A DNA stretch of 26,579 nt from a virus: the UHGV virus genome UHGV-1484038; one strand, 5' to 3'. This document shows positions 509-5,485 of this stretch, piece by piece. Position 1 is the first letter of the stretch; each line of letters begins with the position of its first letter. A program made the position numbers and the translations under genes. Below the pieces are notes generated by a model that saw only the letters and a program-made list of their open reading frames with translations, did no database searches and was not told where the DNA came from.

Positions 509-693
509 ACGCCACGATTCAAACGATACCAGAGCTTCTTATCCAGACACGAGGCAATCAGACCGAAGTGGCGAGGATGCTTTCCTGCGCAAGAGGAACA
601 GTGCTCAAGTACAACAGAGACAGCAAAGGCGAGCGTCACGCAATAGTTAACGGCGTCCTGATGGTCACGCCAGGCAAAAAGGGAAGACGATGA
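505..693 (+). CDS. ninH: NinH-like small protein
   Basis: 62-aa ORF resembling lambda NinH as I recall it (…TIPELL…GNQTEVARML.C.RGTV.KY…HAIVNGVLMV). ATGA start/stop overlap with rusA and with Q. Confidence 0.7.
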   Translation: MNATIQTIPELLIQTRGNQTEVARMLSCARGTVLKYNRDSKGERHAIVNGVLMVTPGKKGRR

Positions 694-1313
694 GACTCGA
701 AAGCGTAGCTAAATTTCATTCGCCCAAAAGCCCGATGATGAGCGACTCACCACGGGCTACGGCTTCTGACTCTCTTTCCGGTACTGATGTGATGGCTGCT
801 ATGGGGATGGCGCAATCACAAGCCGGATTCGGAATGGCTGCATTCTGCGGTAAGCATGAACTCAGCCAGAACGACAAACAAAAGGCTATCAACTATCTGA
901 TGCAATTTGCACACAAGGTATCGGGGAAATACCGTGGCGTTGCAAAGCTTGAAGGAAATACTAAGGCAAAGGTACTGCAAGTTCTCGCAACATTCGCTTA
1001 TGCGGATTATTGCCGTAGTGCCGCGACGCCGGGCGCAAGATGCAGAGATTGTCACGGTACAGGCCGTGCGGTTGATATTGCCAAAACAGAGCTGTGGGGG
1101 AGAGTTGTCGAGAAAGAGTGCGGAAGATGCAAAGGCGTCGGCTATTCAAGGATGCCAGCAAGCGCAGCATATCGCGCTGTGACGATGCTAATCCCAAACC
1201 TTACCCAACCCACCTGGTCACGCACTGTTAAGCCGCTGTATGACGCTCTGGTGGTGCAATGCCACAAAGAAGAGTCAATCGCAGACAACATTTTGAATGC
1301 GGTCACACGTTAG
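690..1313 (+). CDS. Q: Late gene antiterminator Q (lambda Q type)
   Basis: 207-aa protein with the Q zinc-binding motif CRDCHGTGR...CGRCKGVGY. From memory it appears essentially identical to lambda Q. Immediately followed by a pR'-like promoter. Confidence 0.9.
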   Translation: MRLESVAKFHSPKSPMMSDSPRATASDSLSGTDVMAAMGMAQSQAGFGMAAFCGKHELSQNDKQKAINYLMQFAHKVSGKYRGVAKLEGNTKAKVLQVLATFAYADYCRSAATPGARCRDCHGTGRAVDIAKTELWGRVVEKECGRCKGVGYSRMPASAAYRAVTMLIPNLTQPTWSRTVKPLYDALVVQCHKEESIADNILNAVTR

Positions 1314-1355: not shown

Positions 1356-1392
1356 TTGACTTATTGAATAAAATTGGGTAAATTTGACCCAA
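1356..1392 (+). promoter_or_regulatory. Late promoter pR'-like with overlapping qut region
   Basis: TTGACT (1356-1361), 17-bp spacer, TAAATT (1379-1384), directly downstream of Q. The sequence TTGACTTATTGAATAAAATTGGGTAAATTTGAC closely matches the lambda pR' region as I remember it. Confidence 0.6.
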
Positions 1393-1417
1393 CGATGGGT
1401 TAATGCCTTCGTTTCAA

Positions 1418-1451
1418 GCCCCGCGGATAACACCGTGGGGCTTTTGCGTTT
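1418..1451 (+). terminator. Candidate intrinsic terminator tR' (end of a short 6S-like late leader RNA)
   Basis: GC-rich hairpin GCCCCGCGG-ATAACAC-CGTGGGGC followed by TTTTGCGTTT, about 30-60 nt downstream of the predicted pR' start. Confidence 0.5.
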
Positions 1452-1488
1452 CTGGAGGTAACGGCGAGGCGCTACCCTCGCCTTAACA

Positions 1489-1905
1489 TTAAGGGAGGGT
1501 TTTCATTACGCTATCAATCTCCCTTCCTTCAAATCTTGAAGTCCAGCCGCAGGAGCCGCAATGGTAAGGAAAGTCATCGAACCCGCTACCGACCTGTTTA
1601 AGACAGTTGGGGCAATAAACCGCGCTGATATACCCACCCGCGGGATTTTTTCTAAAGGCCGCACCCATGTGCTCGACAAACTCATCCTTTGCCCGATAAG
1701 CCGCTATTTCCTTCTCAAGTTCTACGTTCTTGGCTTTCGCCTCGGCAAGTTCTGCTATGGTGGCAGCATGGGCTTTTTGAAGTACGTCGATCTGCTCTCC
1801 AATGAAAGCGATGCGCTCGCGCAGGACCTCGTTACTTTGCACAGCAGAAAGCGCGCCGATCCCGTTTTTAAGGGACGCGATAAGTAATCCTACATCCATG
1901 GTCAT
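1489..1905 (-). CDS. Hypothetical protein, N-terminal coiled coil plus C-terminal Cys4 zinc ribbon (cargo/moron gene)
   Basis: 138-aa reverse-strand ORF. Coiled-coil-like AELAEAKAKNVELEKEIAAYRAKDE and C-terminal CPNC...(13 aa)...CGSCG pair. The overlapping + strand ORF (1561-1887) has a much less protein-like translation. The second Met (ATG at 1899-1897) has better Shine-Dalgarno spacing (AGGGA-6 nt-ATG). Confidence 0.6.
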   Translation of the reverse strand: MTMDVGLLIASLKNGIGALSAVQSNEVLRERIAFIGEQIDVLQKAHAATIAELAEAKAKNVELEKEIAAYRAKDEFVEHMGAAFRKNPAGGYISAVYCPNCLKQVGSGFDDFPYHCGSCGWTSRFEGREIDSVMKTLP

Positions 1906-2111
1906 TCCCTAATTGTCTGTGGAATGACCAATTTAGCAATTTCCTTTGTCTGTGGAAAGCAGGGAAACCACGCGCCGGGCGTGGATAAATATCCCGGTAT
2001 TGAATCGACTGTTGGCTGCCGCTTGGCGGCCTTTTTCATTTCAGGCTCACGGGAATCATCCGCTACGTGCTTTGTTGATAAATCCAGCCCGTGAAGCCTG
2101 ACCCTTTTCAA

Positions 2112-2126
2112 ACACACACACACACA
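2112..2126. repeat. (AC)7 dinucleotide microsatellite in the holin 5' leader
   Basis: ACACACACACACACA read directly at 2112-2126, about 30 nt upstream of the holin start codon. Confidence 0.9.
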
Positions 2127-2156
2127 GCGCCATCCGAAAAATCGGAGGTGAGGCCT

Positions 2157-2480
2157 ATGAAAATGCCATACAAACAAGATTTCATCGCTGCGCTACTTGC
2201 CGCCAAGGAGCAGGGTATTGGTGCAATGCTGGCTTTTATCATGGCGTATCTGCGTGGTCGCTATAACGGCGGCGCGGTAACAAAAACGCTAATTGATGCG
2301 CTGATGTGCGCGATGATTGCCTGGTTCGTTCGTGACCTTCTGGACTTTATCGGCCTGAGCAGCAACCTCGCCTACATAGCCAGCGTCTTTATTGGATACA
2401 TCGGCACCGATTCGATCGGCAATCTTATTAAAAAACTTGCAGCAAAAAAGGCGGGAGTTGACGATGCAAACCAGTCCTGA
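2157..2480 (+). CDS. S: Holin, lambda S family (class I), with dual-start Met-Lys-Met motif
   Basis: [39 protein letters not shown]... is highly similar to lambda S as I recall it. Three hydrophobic segments. GGAGG Shine-Dalgarno at 2143-2147. The ORF-track start at 2091 (GTG) is an upstream in-frame extension that I reject. Confidence 0.9.
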
Positions 2481-2913
2481 CGGAATTGCTCTGATAAAAA
2501 AATTTGAAGGTTGTCGGCTGACTGCTTACCCCGACCCCGGAACGGGAGATGCGCCGTGGACCATCGGCTATGGCTGGACCCATCCGGTTGACGGAAAGCC
2601 AGTAAAGCGCGGTATGACTATCGACCAGCAAACCGCTGACAGGCTTCTGAAAACAGGGCTTGTTGGTTATGAGAATGACGTGCTGAAAGTTGTCAGGGTG
2701 AAGCTGACACAAGGCCAGTTCGACGCACTGGTGTCGTTCGCTTACAACGTTGGGTCGCGTGCTCTTTCCACATCTACACTGCTGAAAAAGCTGAATGCTG
2801 GCGATATAAAAGGCGCGGCAGATGAATTTCTGCGCTGGAATAAATCAGGCGGAAAGGTGATGCCGGGGCTCACGAATCGCCGCAAGGCAGAGCGAGCTCT
2901 GTTCCTGTCATGA
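2464..2913 (+). CDS. Endolysin, phage lysozyme (T4/P22 gp19-type muramidase)
   Basis: Translation from internal ATG 2464 ([24 protein letters not shown]...GYG...) with the catalytic E-x8-D/C-x5-T arrangement and C-terminal ...[11 protein letters not shown] typical of P22 gp19-like lysozymes. Overlaps the holin end in a different frame. Confidence 0.85.
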
Positions 2914-3377
2914 TTAGCGCACTGGTTAAGCGTTACTGGCTGCAGTTGCTGGTGCTGGCGTTAATCGGCGCACTGGCTTTCTTCGTGAACCACTACCGCG
3001 ACAACGCCATCACTTACAGAGACCAGCGCGATAAGGCCACTGAGAAACTCCTCCTGGCGACCGCCACCATTAAAGACATGCAGACCCGCCAGCGTGATGT
3101 CGCTGCACTGGATGCCAAATACACCGGAGAACTGGCTGATGCGAAAGAAACCATTGAGCGTCTGCATAGCGATGTCATTGCTGGCCGTAAGCGGCTGCAA
3201 GTCGCCGCCACCTGTGCAAAGTCAACGACCGGAGCCAGCAGCATGGGCGATGGAGAAAGCCCAAGACTTACAGCAGATGCTGAACTCAATTATTACCGTC
3301 TACGAAGTGGAATCGACAAGATAACCGCGCAGGTTAACTACCTGCAGGAATACATCAGGACGCAATGCCTTCGATGA
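2910..3377 (+). CDS. Rz: Spanin inner-membrane subunit Rz (i-spanin)
   Basis: N-terminal transmembrane segment then ...[18 protein letters not shown]...[23 protein letters not shown]..., close to lambda Rz. ATGA overlap with the lysozyme stop. Confidence 0.85.
3139..3324 (+). CDS. Rz1: Spanin outer-membrane lipoprotein subunit Rz1 (o-spanin), embedded in Rz in the +1 frame
   Basis: Internal Met of ORF 3094-3324 gives [20 protein letters not shown]... with lipobox LAVSG-C and a proline-rich mature part ([13 protein letters not shown]), the typical embedded Rz1 architecture. Confidence 0.75.
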
Positions 3378-3719: not shown

Positions 3720-4271
3720 ATGAATGATATTTCTATCGAATATCTGAAAGAAGCACTGGAATACGCACCAGATACTGGTGTTATCCGTTGGAAGCAGCGA
3801 CCAAAAATTCATTTTAAGACCGAAAATTCTTGGCGGGCGACCAATGCTAATTTTGCTGGAAAAGTAGCAGGCGCACGTGATAGCGATGGATATTTGCGTA
3901 TCGGGATATGCGGCCGGTTATATAGATCTCATCGTGTAGCCTGGGCGTTACATTACGGCTACTGGCCTGATAATGAGATTGATCACATTTCAGGCGATAG
4001 GAGTGATAACCGCATAGACAACTTGCGATCAGTAACTTCGGCAGCCAATAGCAAAAATTTGCGCCTTTACTCCACAAATAAAACCGGTATCCCAGGAGTA
4101 GGTTGGTATAAAGCGCGGGGAAAGTGGAGAGCAAAGATAAACGTCTCTGGGAAGGTGAAGCATATTGGTTACTTCGATGATTTCCGTGAAGCGGTGAAAG
4201 CAAGAAAGGCTGCCGAGATGCAGTTGCAATATCACAAAAATCACGGAACCAGAGACAGGCTCACTTTCTAA
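3720..4271 (+). CDS. HNH homing endonuclease with C-terminal AP2-like DNA-binding domain
   Basis: HRVAWALHYGYWPDNEIDHISGDRSDNRIDNLRSVT (HNH_3-type motif) followed by GVGWYKARGKWRAKINVSGKVKHIGYFDDFREAVKARKAAE (AP2-like). The gene is visibly more AT-rich than its neighbours. Confidence 0.85.
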   Translation: MNDISIEYLKEALEYAPDTGVIRWKQRPKIHFKTENSWRATNANFAGKVAGARDSDGYLRIGICGRLYRSHRVAWALHYGYWPDNEIDHISGDRSDNRIDNLRSVTSAANSKNLRLYSTNKTGIPGVGWYKARGKWRAKINVSGKVKHIGYFDDFREAVKARKAAEMQLQYHKNHGTRDRLTF

Positions 4272-4285
4272 AAGGTAAAGACGCT

Positions 4286-4804
4286 ATGAATAATCCGTCA
4301 GTTATTCCGGCCTTCGACTTCCGCGAAATGGTCACGACCCTCGACAACAAGATAATCACCACATCACTCAAGGTGGCGGATTACTTTGGCAAGCGACACA
4401 AAGACGTTTTGCGTGCCATACGTAACCTGAAATGCTCCGATGACTTCACCCAGCGCAATTTTGCGCCCATTGATTTCATTGATAAAAATGGCGATGTTCA
4501 GCCTATGTATAACATCACCCGCGACGGATGCATGATGCTAGTGATGGGATTCACTGGCAAAACAGCTGCCGCAGTGAAGGAGTGTTACATCAATGCCTTC
4601 AACTGGATGGCCGAGCAGCTAAACCGGCGCATGGCGATGGGTGAAGAATTGCAGCATCGCTACGCCATCAAAGAAACGCGCTCAAAGCTGAAAGGCACGA
4701 TCGGAAGCCGTTTGATGAACGAGCGGAAGAAAGAGAAGCGCGTCCTGGAGCTCGAACATGAGCACATCATGCAGGTAACGCAGCCGGAATTACTTATTGG
4801 CTGA
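4286..4804 (+). CDS. rha: Rha family phage regulatory protein
   Basis: N-terminal ...ITTSLKVADYFGKRHKDVLRAIRNL...FTQRNF...YNITRDGCMMLVMGFTGKTAAAVKECYINAF matches the Rha (phage pRha) domain pattern. Rha genes sit between lysis and packaging genes in P22-like phages. Confidence 0.8.
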   Translation: MNNPSVIPAFDFREMVTTLDNKIITTSLKVADYFGKRHKDVLRAIRNLKCSDDFTQRNFAPIDFIDKNGDVQPMYNITRDGCMMLVMGFTGKTAAAVKECYINAFNWMAEQLNRRMAMGEELQHRYAIKETRSKLKGTIGSRLMNERKKEKRVLELEHEHIMQVTQPELLIG

Positions 4805-4828
4805 TCGCGGCATTACAGAAGCCCTTCA

Positions 4829-5485
4829 TTGAGGGGCTTCGATAATGGAGCACTGGAATTATTCATGAACAGACCACACCCACCAGCGCATTTTACGATG
4901 CCACCTGACCCGAAGCCGTACATCAGCATTATGCCCGCTAATGACGTTGGCGAGTGGCTGAATCAGCACATCCTGAGCGATGAGGGTGACCTCTACAACC
5001 ATGACCACCAGCATTTGCTTGAAGCGGATCTGTGCTTTCTCTGGGCATCGAACGCTTTCGAGAAGAAAGGGCGTTCCGTGCTGGGGCAGGCGGAAGAAGT
5101 GGCAATGCGGGCCGGAGGCTGGCAGAAAGCGCGGATGGAGCAGCAGATGTATGAATGGTTCGGCAGGGTGCCGCAGTTCATCATCACGCTGGCCGCCGAT
5201 TACTGCTCGCAATGTTCCGATCTGGAATTCTGCGCGCTGATAGAGCACGAGCTTTATCACATCTGCCAAGCGACAGATGAATTTGGTGCGCCGAAGTTCA
5301 CGCAGGAAGGGCAGCCAAAGCTGAAGCTGCGCGGCCATGACGTGGAAGAGTTTGTGGGCGTGGTTCGCCGTTACGGTGCGAGCCGGGACGTGCAGGAAAT
5401 GATTGATGCGGCGAATCAGCCAGCGGAGGTTGCTCATCTCGATATTGCCAGAGCGTGCGGGACGTGCATGCTGCGACTGGCTTAA
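4829..5485 (+). CDS. Putative zinc metallopeptidase-like protein (HExxH motif), function unknown
   Basis: 218-aa ORF with HELYH at ...ALIEHELYHICQ... and several Cys pairs (CSQCS, CGTC). Start may be the internal Met at 4865. The antisense ORF 4859-5554 is rejected as a shadow. Confidence 0.6.
   Translation: MRGFDNGALELFMNRPHPPAHFTMPPDPKPYISIMPANDVGEWLNQHILSDEGDLYNHDHQHLLEADLCFLWASNAFEKKGRSVLGQAEEVAMRAGGWQKARMEQQMYEWFGRVPQFIITLAADYCSQCSDLEFCALIEHELYHICQATDEFGAPKFTQEGQPKLKLRGHDVEEFVGVVRRYGASRDVQEMIDAANQPAEVAHLDIARACGTCMLRLA

What the first reader, a model, noticed from the sequence alone, without database searches (positions are those of the whole stretch)
1489..2050. Reverse-strand coiled-coil/zinc-ribbon gene in the Q-to-holin moron hotspot, with repeat-rich upstream region
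The interval between pR'/tR' and the holin is the classic cargo site of lambdoid phages. Here it holds a 138-aa gene on the opposite strand with an N-terminal coiled coil and C-terminal Cys4 zinc ribbon, which I cannot assign to a family. Its upstream region carries a 12-bp direct repeat TTGTCTGTGGAA (1910-1921 and 1947-1958), a perfect palindrome CCACGC-GCCGG-GCGTGG (1969-1985) and a + strand hairpin plus T-tract (about 2017-2040). A possible 45-aa upstream ORF (2039-1902, MKKAAKRQPTVDS...) ends by overlapping the main ORF start. This looks like an independently regulated module transcribed against the late operon.
Basis: partly seen in the sequence, partly recalled or inferred. Interest (0 to 1): 0.65.

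Follow-up and report, generated by a model that had tools for sequence, protein, structure and literature searches.

The report
Rip1-type phage-defence gene with antisense switch
The reverse-strand gene between Q and the holin is a distant member of the recently described Rip1 family of prophage anti-phage pore proteins, and its "repeat-rich" upstream region is the promoter plus antisense-RNA module known from the P22/lambda sieB exclusion gene, which probably lets the phage switch the weapon off during its own lytic growth.

Summary
The ORF is real, but it is 136 aa (start ATG 1899), not 138. It is conserved in about 475 clusters at 50% identity. It has an N-terminal Gly/Ala-rich helix, a long coiled-coil helix and a C-terminal Cys4 zinc-ribbon domain.

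Four lines tie it to Rip1 ("ring interacting pore 1", HK446 gp37, PDB 9oox):
- Both proteins hit phrog_1244 over their full length.
- Profile-profile comparison gives probability 89%, E 2e-6, score 42, against at most 24 in controls.
- In related prophages the two genes replace each other between identical flanks.

The upstream repeats, palindrome and hairpins are real and conserved. They are not specific to this protein. They form the PsieB promoter / sas antisense-RNA module of P22 sieB. A covariance model built only from sieB, rip1 and other-cargo loci finds one hit in the window: + strand 1894-2020, E 1e-7.

The 45-aa upstream ORF is not conserved.

Best reading: a defence gene expressed in the lysogen and silenced by antisense late transcription and a sas-like RNA. 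This is a new member of a known kind. The portable module with many unknown cargo genes is the more interesting by-product.

The parts
1489..1899 (-). Rip1-family (phrog_1244) gene, 136 aa. N-terminal Gly/Ala-rich helix (residues 5-21 in the 138-aa numbering), long helix 26-74, C-terminal Cys4 zinc-ribbon domain 75-138.
   Evidence: Synonymous:nonsynonymous codon differences to homologues are 10:5, 42:15 and 44:17.
1905..1910 (-). Shine-Dalgarno AGGGAA, 5 nt upstream of the ATG at 1899.
   Evidence: Read from the sequence. A purine-rich SD lies at the same place in all aligned loci.
1899..1930 (.). Hairpin R2. Perfect 10-bp arms 1899-1908 / 1921-1930 enclose repeat copy 2 (1913-1924). The arm nearest the gene covers the SD and start codon.
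   Evidence: Arm sequences differ completely between lineages yet stay complementary. Corresponds to the first hairpin of P22 sas RNA.
1930..1935 (-). -10 element TAAATT of the PsieB-type promoter, with an extended -10 TG at 1937-1938. Predicted transcription start about 1925.
   Evidence: T, A and final T of the hexamer are invariant in 21 diverged loci. It aligns with the -10 of the annotated P22 'P sieB' promoter.
1940..1958 (.). Hairpin R1. Arms TTTCC / GGAAA (1940-1944 / 1954-1958) enclose repeat copy 1 (1946-1957). It overlaps the -35 position of the promoter.
   Evidence: RNAalifold finds this helix, with 3 pairs changed on both sides.
1968..1997 (.). They form either alternative hairpins or a pseudoknot.
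   Evidence: Helix b variants: CCAC/GTGG, CCTCA/TGAGG, TCCTC/GAGGA, CACG/CGTG. Helix a variants: GCCTG/CAGGC versus GCCGGG/CCCGGC.
1894..2020 (+). sas-like antisense RNA module. It is complementary to the 5'UTR, SD and start codon of the defence gene and to its promoter region.
   Evidence: Covariance model R1, built from 23 loci with sieB, rip1 or other cargo and none from this protein family, gives a single hit in the window: 43.3 bits, E 1.2e-7, full length. The sequenced 127-nt P22 sas RNA is the reverse complement of the equivalent P22 region.
2014..2036 (+). Intrinsic-terminator-like hairpin GGCTGCCGCTTGGCGGCC followed by TTTTT, on the late-operon strand, at the 3' end of the sas-like region.
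   Evidence: A hairpin preceded by a run of A (a terminator of the opposite strand) also lies upstream of the gene in the other upstream type.
1458..1487 (-). GC-rich hairpin immediately after the stop codon. It marks the end of the cassette and is terminator-like but has no U tract.
   Evidence: Most homologous loci have a GC hairpin at this place, and many of them have a T run.
1356..1450 (+). Context: pR' (TTGACT-17-TAAATT, 1356-1384) with qut, and the tR' terminator (1416-1443 plus T run).
   Evidence: HK phage records annotate the homologous stretch as the pR'/qut promoter and a terminator.
690..1313 (+). Context: lambda-type Q antiterminator.
2157..2480 (+). Context: lambda-family holin with an MKM dual start, followed by lysozyme (2464-2913) and Rz (2910-3377).

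Best explanation
The gene encodes a Rip1-family anti-phage defence protein carried in a sieB-type moron cassette. The cassette here sits in reverse orientation between tR' and the holin.

In the lysogen the late operon is silent. The gene is transcribed from its own PsieB-like promoter (-10 at 1930-1935, minus strand).

By analogy with HK446 Rip1, the C-terminal zinc-ribbon domain would bind a ring-shaped assembly protein of a superinfecting phage, either small terminase or portal. The protein would oligomerise around that ring, and the N-terminal helices would form a membrane pore that kills or lyses the cell before progeny mature.

When the resident phage itself goes lytic, Q-antiterminated transcription from pR' runs through the cassette in antisense. 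This interferes with the promoter and yields a structured sas-like RNA (+ 1894 to about 2020-2036). That RNA is complementary to the 5'UTR, SD and AUG and would block translation, so the phage is not killed by its own terminase or portal rings.

Shown here: family membership, the fold prediction, homology of the cassette and of the promoter/antisense module, and orientation.

Inferred: the trigger, pore formation, expression in the lysogen, and the self-immunity role of the antisense RNA.
For: Family membership:
- The window protein hits phrog_1244 (E 6e-26). Bona fide Rip1 (HK446 gp37, identical to PDB 9oox_L) hits the same PHROG over its full length (E 2e-53).
- hhalign of a 119-sequence profile against a 36-sequence Rip1 profile gives probability 89%, E 2.2e-6, score 42.1 over 105 colinear columns, covering coil, beta hairpin and both CxxC motifs. 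Reversed and 60 block-shuffled controls score at most 23.7.
- The domain order is the same, and both have a Gly/Ala/Ser-rich N-terminal helix.
- In Proteus/Xenorhabdus-type prophages the two genes replace each other between flanks that are 89-96% identical.

Rip1 mechanism: taken from the review PMC13434031, section 8, which summarises Patel et al. 2026.

Promoter and antisense module:
- The upstream regions of HK446 rip1 and P22 sieB have the same architecture as the window.
- The P22 record annotates PsieB exactly over R1 and the -10.
- The 127-nt sas RNA found by sRNA-seq is the reverse complement of that region, starting at the sieB AUG.
- A covariance model built without this protein family hits the window once: + 1894-2020, E 1.2e-7.
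- Hairpins R1 and R2 fold more stably on the antisense strand on average: -7.4 and -6.9 kcal/mol, against -5.3 and -4.8 on the sense strand.

Orientation: 86 of 88 non-redundant loci have at least one flanking ORF on the opposite strand. The same holds in distant Castellaniella and metagenomic members.
Against: - Foldseek against the PDB with the same C-terminal model did not retrieve 9oox (best E 0.44).
- Each half of the protein alone gives only weak profile similarity: P 0.027 for the C-terminal half and 0.0013 for the N-terminal half. Direct HMM searches do not cross between the two subfamilies.
- Sequence identity to Rip1 is about 16-17%, so trigger specificity, and even the mode of killing, may differ.
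- The N-terminal helix is less amphipathic than that of Rip1 (hydrophobic moment about 0.2 against about 0.4) and more hydrophobic.
- No expression data exist for this locus.
- The predicted promoter has a poor -35 (TTTCCA) and fell below the threshold of the consensus scan.
- How sas RNA ends are made, by its own promoter or by processing of the operon transcript, is not established here. In P22 the switch works through the internal-start product Esc, which has no conserved counterpart in this gene.
- About a quarter of the non-redundant upstream regions of this same gene (13 type B and 4 other, of 57) use an unrelated upstream region (classification). The sas-like module is therefore not obligatory for the protein.
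Confidence: 0.62

Rival explanations
1. The protein is an abortive-infection or exclusion effector carried in the sieB cassette, but it does not work like Rip1. It might sense a different phage component, or act in the cytoplasm rather than as a pore. Under this reading the shared coiled coil plus zinc ribbon reflects only very old common ancestry.
For: - Only about 16-17% identity to Rip1.
- Foldseek found no match.
- The N-terminal helix has different properties.
- The same cassette carries many unrelated cargo genes, including the membrane protein SieB. Position in the cassette therefore predicts 'defence/exclusion', not a particular mechanism.
Against: - Both proteins are in the same PHROG.
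- The full-length profile match is colinear and well above controls.
- The three-part architecture and the size class are the same.
Confidence: 0.2
2. The protein is a coiled-coil/zinc-ribbon nucleic-acid-binding regulator that controls its own promoter through the two direct repeats and the palindrome.
For: - The two repeat copies flank the -10 (one over the -35 position, one around +1), lie 33 bp apart, and co-vary within each locus. That is the geometry of operator sites.
- Some distant family members carry a C-terminal extension that looks like a winged helix (not tested).
Against: - The same repeat types occur upstream of unrelated cargo. CCCCTACAG occurs with both sieB and rip1. GACTGTGGAA occurs with 54- to 95-aa proteins. 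CCGCAACGTAA occurs with a Rip1-family gene.
- Proteins 87-89% identical to the window protein sit behind a completely different upstream region.
- The arms flanking each repeat vary freely but stay complementary, which points to a single-stranded RNA structure rather than a protein-binding palindrome.
- The region is transcribed as sas RNA in P22.
- No DNA-binding family matched the protein.
Confidence: 0.05
3. The locus is a type I toxin-antitoxin-like addiction module. The protein is intrinsically toxic, and the plus-strand RNA is a constitutively made antitoxin with its own promoter, stabilising the prophage rather than defending against other phages.
For: - The antisense RNA overlaps the SD and start codon and ends at an intrinsic terminator.
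- The gene is small, stands alone and is mobile.
Against: - Rip1 expression alone is reported as non-toxic.
- No consensus-like plus-strand promoter was found upstream of 1894.
- The conserved module ends exactly at the start codon while the cargo is swapped. A conserved antisense promoter inside the cargo is therefore unlikely.
Confidence: 0.08

Closest known systems
Rip1 (ring interacting pore 1) of phage HK446 (gp37, YP_007111990; PDB 9oox) and of a Pseudomonas aeruginosa prophage. Patel et al. 2026, Nature 651:1060, as summarised in PMC13434031.
   Same: - Same PHROG (phrog_1244).
- Same three-part architecture: N-terminal small-residue-rich helix, coiled coil, then a C-terminal beta hairpin plus Cys4 zinc ribbon.
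- Single-gene, prophage-encoded, on the strand opposite to its neighbours.
- Same PsieB/sas-type upstream region.
- The two genes are interchangeable at the same prophage position.
   Different: - 136 aa against 164 aa, with about 16-17% identity.
- The coiled coil is shorter.
- The zinc-ribbon spacing differs: CxxC-14-CxxC here, against CxxC-23-CxxC in Rip1.
- The N-terminal helix is more hydrophobic and less amphipathic.
- It is located between tR' and the holin, not at the sieB position between N and ral, and not between the terminase genes.
- Trigger and pore formation are untested.
sieB/esc superinfection-exclusion locus of P22 and lambda, with its PsieB promoter and sas antisense RNA. 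Ranade & Poteete 1993 (own knowledge); P22 record AF527608; sRNA-seq in PMC13397905.
   Same: - The regulatory DNA is homologous: helices a and b, repeat/hairpin R1 over the -35 position, the -10, and repeat/hairpin R2 over the SD and AUG.
- The cassette is reversed inside a lytic operon.
- An antisense RNA covers the translation start.
   Different: - The cargo protein is unrelated to SieB, which is a membrane protein of phrog_6399/1301.
- There is no conserved internal start equivalent to Esc.
- The cassette lies in the late (pR') operon rather than the early-left (pL) operon.
- The antisense region is followed by an intrinsic terminator.
- The repeat core is TTGTCTGTGGAA rather than CTGTAGGGGT.
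RAZR (ring-activated zinc-finger RNase). Zhang et al. 2026, as summarised in PMC13434031.
   Same: Conceptually similar: a zinc-finger domain that senses ring-shaped phage packaging proteins and assembles around them.
IsrK sRNA of Gifsy-1 (Rfam RF01394).
   Same: It lies in the same Q-to-lysis interval. There is a sub-threshold Rfam match on + 1959-2036, consisting of the CCGGG/CCCGG hairpin plus a terminator.
   Different: The score is 21 bits against a gathering threshold of 50. There is no orf45-anrP downstream. It is not filed as a member.

Membership tests
Rip1 family (phrog_1244) | Sequence or profile homology to experimentally characterised Rip1. | tested here: met
   - Both proteins match phrog_1244 over their full length: E 6e-26 and 2e-53.
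- hhalign gives probability 89%, E 2e-6, score 42, against at most 24 in controls.
- Caveat: single-profile HMM searches do not bridge the two subfamilies.
Rip1 family (phrog_1244) | C-terminal ring-binding domain fold as in PDB 9oox. | tested here: inconclusive
Rip1 family (phrog_1244) | N-terminal amphipathic helix able to form the pore. | tested here: inconclusive
   A helix at residues 5-21 is predicted. It is rich in Gly/Ala/Ser like that of Rip1. Its hydrophobic moment is only about 0.2, against about 0.4 for Rip1.
Rip1 family (phrog_1244) | A single small gene in a prophage that needs no partner gene. | tested here: met
   The gene is always solitary, lies in varied prophage positions, and has no conserved neighbour.
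Rip1 family (phrog_1244) | Activated by oligomeric small terminase or portal, forms a pore, aborts infection, and is not toxic alone. | not testable with these tools
   Needs phage challenge, escape mutants, and biochemistry or cryo-EM.
sieB-type cassette (PsieB promoter + sas antisense RNA) | Homologous upstream region with the PsieB -10. | tested here: met
   Alignments show the T, A and final T of the -10 invariant. The window region aligns with the annotated P22 PsieB.
sieB-type cassette (PsieB promoter + sas antisense RNA) | A sas-like structured RNA on the strand antisense to the gene, covering the SD and AUG. | tested here: met
   The covariance model built without this protein family hits + 1894-2020 at E 1.2e-7, full length, as the only hit in 26.6 kb. 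Transcription in this phage was not tested.
sieB-type cassette (PsieB promoter + sas antisense RNA) | Reverse orientation inside an operon that is transcribed only in lytic growth. | tested here: met
   The gene lies on the minus strand between pR'/tR' and the holin. The general trend is shown.
sieB-type cassette (PsieB promoter + sas antisense RNA) | An internal in-frame start giving an Esc-like inhibitor. | tested here: not met
   The only internal Met before the zinc ribbon (M80) is not conserved; homologues have HMG, HRG or HRT there. The cassette is therefore a sieB-type expression module with a different cargo and probably a simpler off switch.
IsrK (RF01394) | Rfam gathering score. | tested here: not met
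   21.2 bits against 50.
Known defence systems in PADLOC 2.0 | HMM match. | tested here: not met
   No hit. The library predates the description of Rip1.

The most novel reading that the evidence does not exclude
The PsieB/sas module is a portable platform combining expression with self-immunity. It is a conserved promoter plus antisense-RNA unit that lambdoid and other enterobacterial prophages use to carry interchangeable single-gene weapons in reverse orientation inside lytic operons. Any cargo placed behind it is on in the lysogen and is switched off by the phage's own lytic transcription.

The module would then mark a set of at least 10 mostly uncharacterised cargo families as candidate anti-phage genes: phrog_27767, 8894, 5286, 4852, 25023 and several unassigned ones, besides SieB and two Rip1 subfamilies. 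It would also explain how Rip1-carrying phages avoid triggering their own Rip1.
Probability: 0.45. Interest if true: 0.72.

Novelty: new member of a known kind. Interest (0 to 1): 0.5.

Why it matters
Rip1 was described only in 2026. This shows that a second, very divergent subfamily of about 136 aa exists, with about 475 clusters at 50% identity across Proteobacteria. An identical copy is present in the cultivable phages HK225 and Louie. This gives a ready comparison for what determines ring recognition.

The work also links Rip1-type genes to the 30-year-old sieB/sas antisense switch. That link suggests a concrete and testable answer to how a prophage avoids suicide by a defence protein that senses terminase or portal rings, which the prophage itself must make.

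Finally, the conserved regulatory module can be used as a search handle for new single-gene defence candidates.

Tried and rejected
- Pfam, NCBIfam and PADLOC scans of the protein gave only coiled-coil noise or nothing.
- Profile searches of PDB sequences with A1 and A2 did not find Rip1.
- Foldseek against the PDB was negative.
- Fusion proteins in the family gave no informative Pfam domain.
- LexA-box idea for the alternative 'type B' upstream region: rejected. The palindrome is CTG-N9-CAG, one base short of the E. coli SOS box (own reading).
- Repeats as operators of a phage-wide regulator: the repeat does not recur elsewhere in the window. In HK446 the exact 10-mer occurs only once outside the rip1 upstream region, inside a tail gene.
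- IsrK: sub-threshold only.
- Upstream 45-aa ORF: rejected.
- The search for related loci with the very diverse alignment A5 failed because no stretch was conserved enough.
- An attempt to infer the transcribed strand from G-U against A-C pairs was too noisy, and the script stopped early. Only the mean folding energies are used.
- The primary Rip1 paper and the two Ranade & Poteete papers are not in the library. Their content is cited from reviews or from my own knowledge.
- Two literature searches for sieB/sas returned only irrelevant papers.

Full report
**Setting**

The window starts in the nin/Q region of a lambdoid phage. The features, in order, are:
- RusA, 146-508
- lambda-type Q, 690-1313
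- pR' with qut, 1356-1384
- tR', 1416-1450
- the minus-strand ORF under study
- a lambda-family holin, 2157-2480
- lysozyme
- Rz

.

The segment around the ORF is 99% identical to Escherichia phage Louie and 98% identical to HK225. In HK225 the shared block (window about 1372-2160) lies behind a different, Qin-type Q and in front of a different holin. The structural genes of the window are of a myovirus type, whereas Louie is P22-like. The block is therefore a mobile unit.

**Checking the observation**

The ORF is real.
- It has 66 close homologues in Enterobacterales and Vibrio, at 58-96% identity and all about 136 aa.
- An exhaustive profile search finds 475 cluster representatives, 220 of them at E below 1e-10.
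- Codon differences to homologues are mostly synonymous.
- All aligned homologues start at the residue corresponding to M3, and the SD is correctly spaced for that ATG. The gene is therefore 1489-1899, 136 aa.
- Four Cys residues are invariant.

AlphaFold (pLDDT 89) predicts a short N-terminal helix, a 49-residue helix, and a beta-rich zinc-ribbon domain with a terminal helix.

On its own, a 12-mer present twice in this window is not beyond chance. Its significance comes from conservation, described below.

The 45-aa upstream ORF is not conserved.

**What the protein is**

Pfam, NCBIfam and PADLOC gave nothing. PHROGs gave phrog_1244, annotated as unknown function.

I located Rip1 in the HK446 genome as gp37. 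It is a 164-aa protein on the strand opposite to its neighbours N and a ral-like gene. Its layout matches the window protein: a Gly/Ala-rich N-terminal helix, a coiled coil, a beta hairpin and CxxC...CxxC.

The sequence evidence developed in steps:
- A single-sequence comparison was not significant.
- Broad profiles on both sides (119 and 36 sequences) gave hhalign probability 89%, E 2.2e-6, score 42.1 over 105 colinear columns.
- Reversed alignments and 60 block-shuffled alignments scored at most 23.7.
- Each half alone is weak.
- Foldseek did not find the match.
- Rip1 itself hits phrog_1244 over its full length (E 2e-53), the same PHROG as the window protein.

I conclude that the gene is a divergent member of the Rip1 family.

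According to the review PMC13434031, Rip1 has these properties:
- It is a single-protein sensor and effector.
- It is not toxic alone.
- It is triggered by the portal (Pseudomonas phages) or the small-terminase ring (E. coli phages).
- Twelve Rip1 monomers encircle an 11-mer terminase ring.
- The N-terminal helices form a pore that lyses the cell prematurely.

**What the upstream region is**

I compared the 260 nt upstream of the gene in 83 loci. Most share one architecture, which I call type A. Read on the gene strand, it runs as follows:
2. Repeat copy 1, inside a small inverted repeat.
3. A hexamer TAnnnT.
4. Repeat copy 2, inside a longer inverted repeat whose 3' arm covers the SD.
5. The ATG.

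The repeat core differs between lineages: TTCCACAGACAA here, CCCCAACGTAA in Morganellaceae, and CCACAACGYAA in L076. The two copies within a locus always agree.

The arms of the hairpins change completely between lineages but stay complementary. The T, A and final T of the hexamer are invariant in 21 diverged sequences, which is the signature of a sigma-70 -10 element.

The upstream region of bona fide rip1 in HK446, and of 20 further Rip1-family loci, has exactly this architecture. In some prophages the flanks are nearly identical while the ORF is either Rip1-type or window-type.

I then searched IMG/VR for the a/b element. The first ORF downstream fell into these groups:
- SieB-like, 46 times
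- Rip1-type, 17 times
- window-type, 1 by HMM, plus about 4 probably mis-called as a 59-aa ORF in another frame (one of them lies on the same contig as window-type locus L067)
- about a dozen other small-protein clusters, mostly of unknown function

.

The P22 sieB region shows the same layout. The P22 record annotates the promoter "P sieB" exactly over repeat 1 and the -10.

A 2026 sRNA-seq study lists the 127-nt P22 sas RNA. Its sequence is the reverse complement of this region, running from the sieB AUG through R2, the -10, R1 and helices b and a.

I built a covariance model from 23 such regions, none of them belonging to the window's protein family. It finds one hit in the 26.6-kb window: + strand 1894-2020, 43.3 bits, E 1.2e-7, full length.

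The "repeat-rich upstream region" is therefore a PsieB-type promoter overlapped by a sas-type antisense RNA. In the window this region is followed by an intrinsic-terminator-like hairpin on the plus strand (2014-2036).

**How it most likely works**

From my own knowledge of Ranade & Poteete 1993 (papers not held in the library): P22 sieB is expressed in the lysogen. Lytically growing P22 makes sas RNA, which blocks SieB translation and so prevents P22 from excluding itself.

The cassette is nearly always reversed relative to its neighbours (also in distant members). The conserved module ends exactly at the start codon while the cargo varies. An antisense promoter inside the cargo is therefore unlikely. 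The antisense RNA is most simply derived from the surrounding lytic operon transcript.

In the window that transcript is the Q-antiterminated late transcript from pR'. It appears at the time the phage makes its own terminase and portal rings.

I therefore propose the following:
- In the lysogen, the promoter (-10 at 1930-1935, predicted start about 1925) drives the Rip1-like gene.
- On induction, convergent late transcription plus the sas-like RNA silence it.

This part is inference. It is testable by transcript mapping and by hairpin mutations.

**Rival explanations**

- The autoregulator idea is disfavoured. The same repeat types sit in front of unrelated cargo, and proteins 87-89% identical to this one sit behind an unrelated upstream region.
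- A type I toxin-antitoxin reading is possible. It lacks an antisense promoter and conflicts with the reported non-toxicity of Rip1.
- A defence function with a mechanism different from Rip1 remains a real possibility, given about 16% identity.

**Novelty and verdict**

The protein is a new, divergent member of a family described in 2026. The regulatory module is a relocated copy of a module known since 1993.

I could not find a description of two points:
- the link between the two, namely Rip1-type genes riding in sieB cassettes with a sas-like antisense RNA as the likely self-immunity device;
- the breadth of unknown cargo behind the same module.

I could not read the primary Rip1 paper, so part of this may already be noted there.

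Overall this is a solid and explainable finding of moderate interest, with a useful lead for finding new defence genes.

Noticed in passing
window 1959-2036 (+) and 1377-1444 (+): Sub-threshold Rfam matches. isrK (21 bits, gathering score 50) lies over the 3' half of the sas-like RNA plus the terminator. isrJ (16 bits) lies over the pR'-tR' short transcript. In Gifsy-1, IsrK and IsrJ occupy the same Q-to-lysis interval, so a distant evolutionary relation is conceivable.
   Followed up: partly
IMG/VR loci L133-L252: The PsieB/sas module precedes about 17 clusters of cargo ORFs. These are SieB (46 loci), Rip1 family (17), phrog_27767, 8894, 5286, 4852 and 25023, and several unassigned small proteins. 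A few clusters may be mis-called ORFs. They are candidate new exclusion or defence genes.
   Followed up: partly
loci L036-L051, L059, L062, L066 (upstream of the same gene): An alternative 'type B' upstream region carries a conserved palindrome CTGAT-N5-ATCAG (ACTGATCTTTTATCAGGAT) and CCAGGTTAGGCTG. It is preceded by a terminator of the opposite strand. It resembles a LexA box but has N9 instead of N10 between CTG and CAG. The regulator is unknown.
   Followed up: no
window about 2110-2124 (+): A (CA)7 dinucleotide run lies just upstream of the holin ribosome-binding site.
   Followed up: no
window 3400-24000; L130 (Louie); L001 (HK225): The identical defence cassette sits in phages with three different virion types. 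The window has myovirus-like structural genes, 96.5% identical to Citrobacter phage Omnitron. Louie is a P22-like podovirus. HK225 has a Qin-type Q. This illustrates the mobility of the cassette.
   Followed up: partly
L130 35382-35609 (Louie_CDS0060), equivalent to window about 1902-2129 (-): The GenBank record of phage Louie annotates a 75-aa CDS across the promoter/sas region. The frame is not conserved in relatives, so the CDS is probably a gene-calling artefact.
   Followed up: yes
proteins P0110 and P0193 (distant family members): Two members of about 215-227 aa carry a shared C-terminal extension that looks like a winged-helix domain (...GFVE...TPKAREYLAKHNLL). P0098 has an N-terminal transmembrane extension. 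No Pfam match was found.
   Followed up: no
L083 6538-6547 (HK446): A third exact copy of the HK446 repeat core ACCCCTACAG lies inside the tail-terminator gene. With up to 1 mismatch there are 6 matches in the genome, against about 1 expected. Its significance is unknown.
   Followed up: no
window 3720-5485 (+): Downstream of Rz, where Louie has a gene annotated as anti-CRISPR, the window has different ORFs: a 183-aa ORF and a 172-aa ORF starting MNNPSVIPAFDF..., possibly of Rha/antirepressor type. These were not analysed.
   Followed up: no
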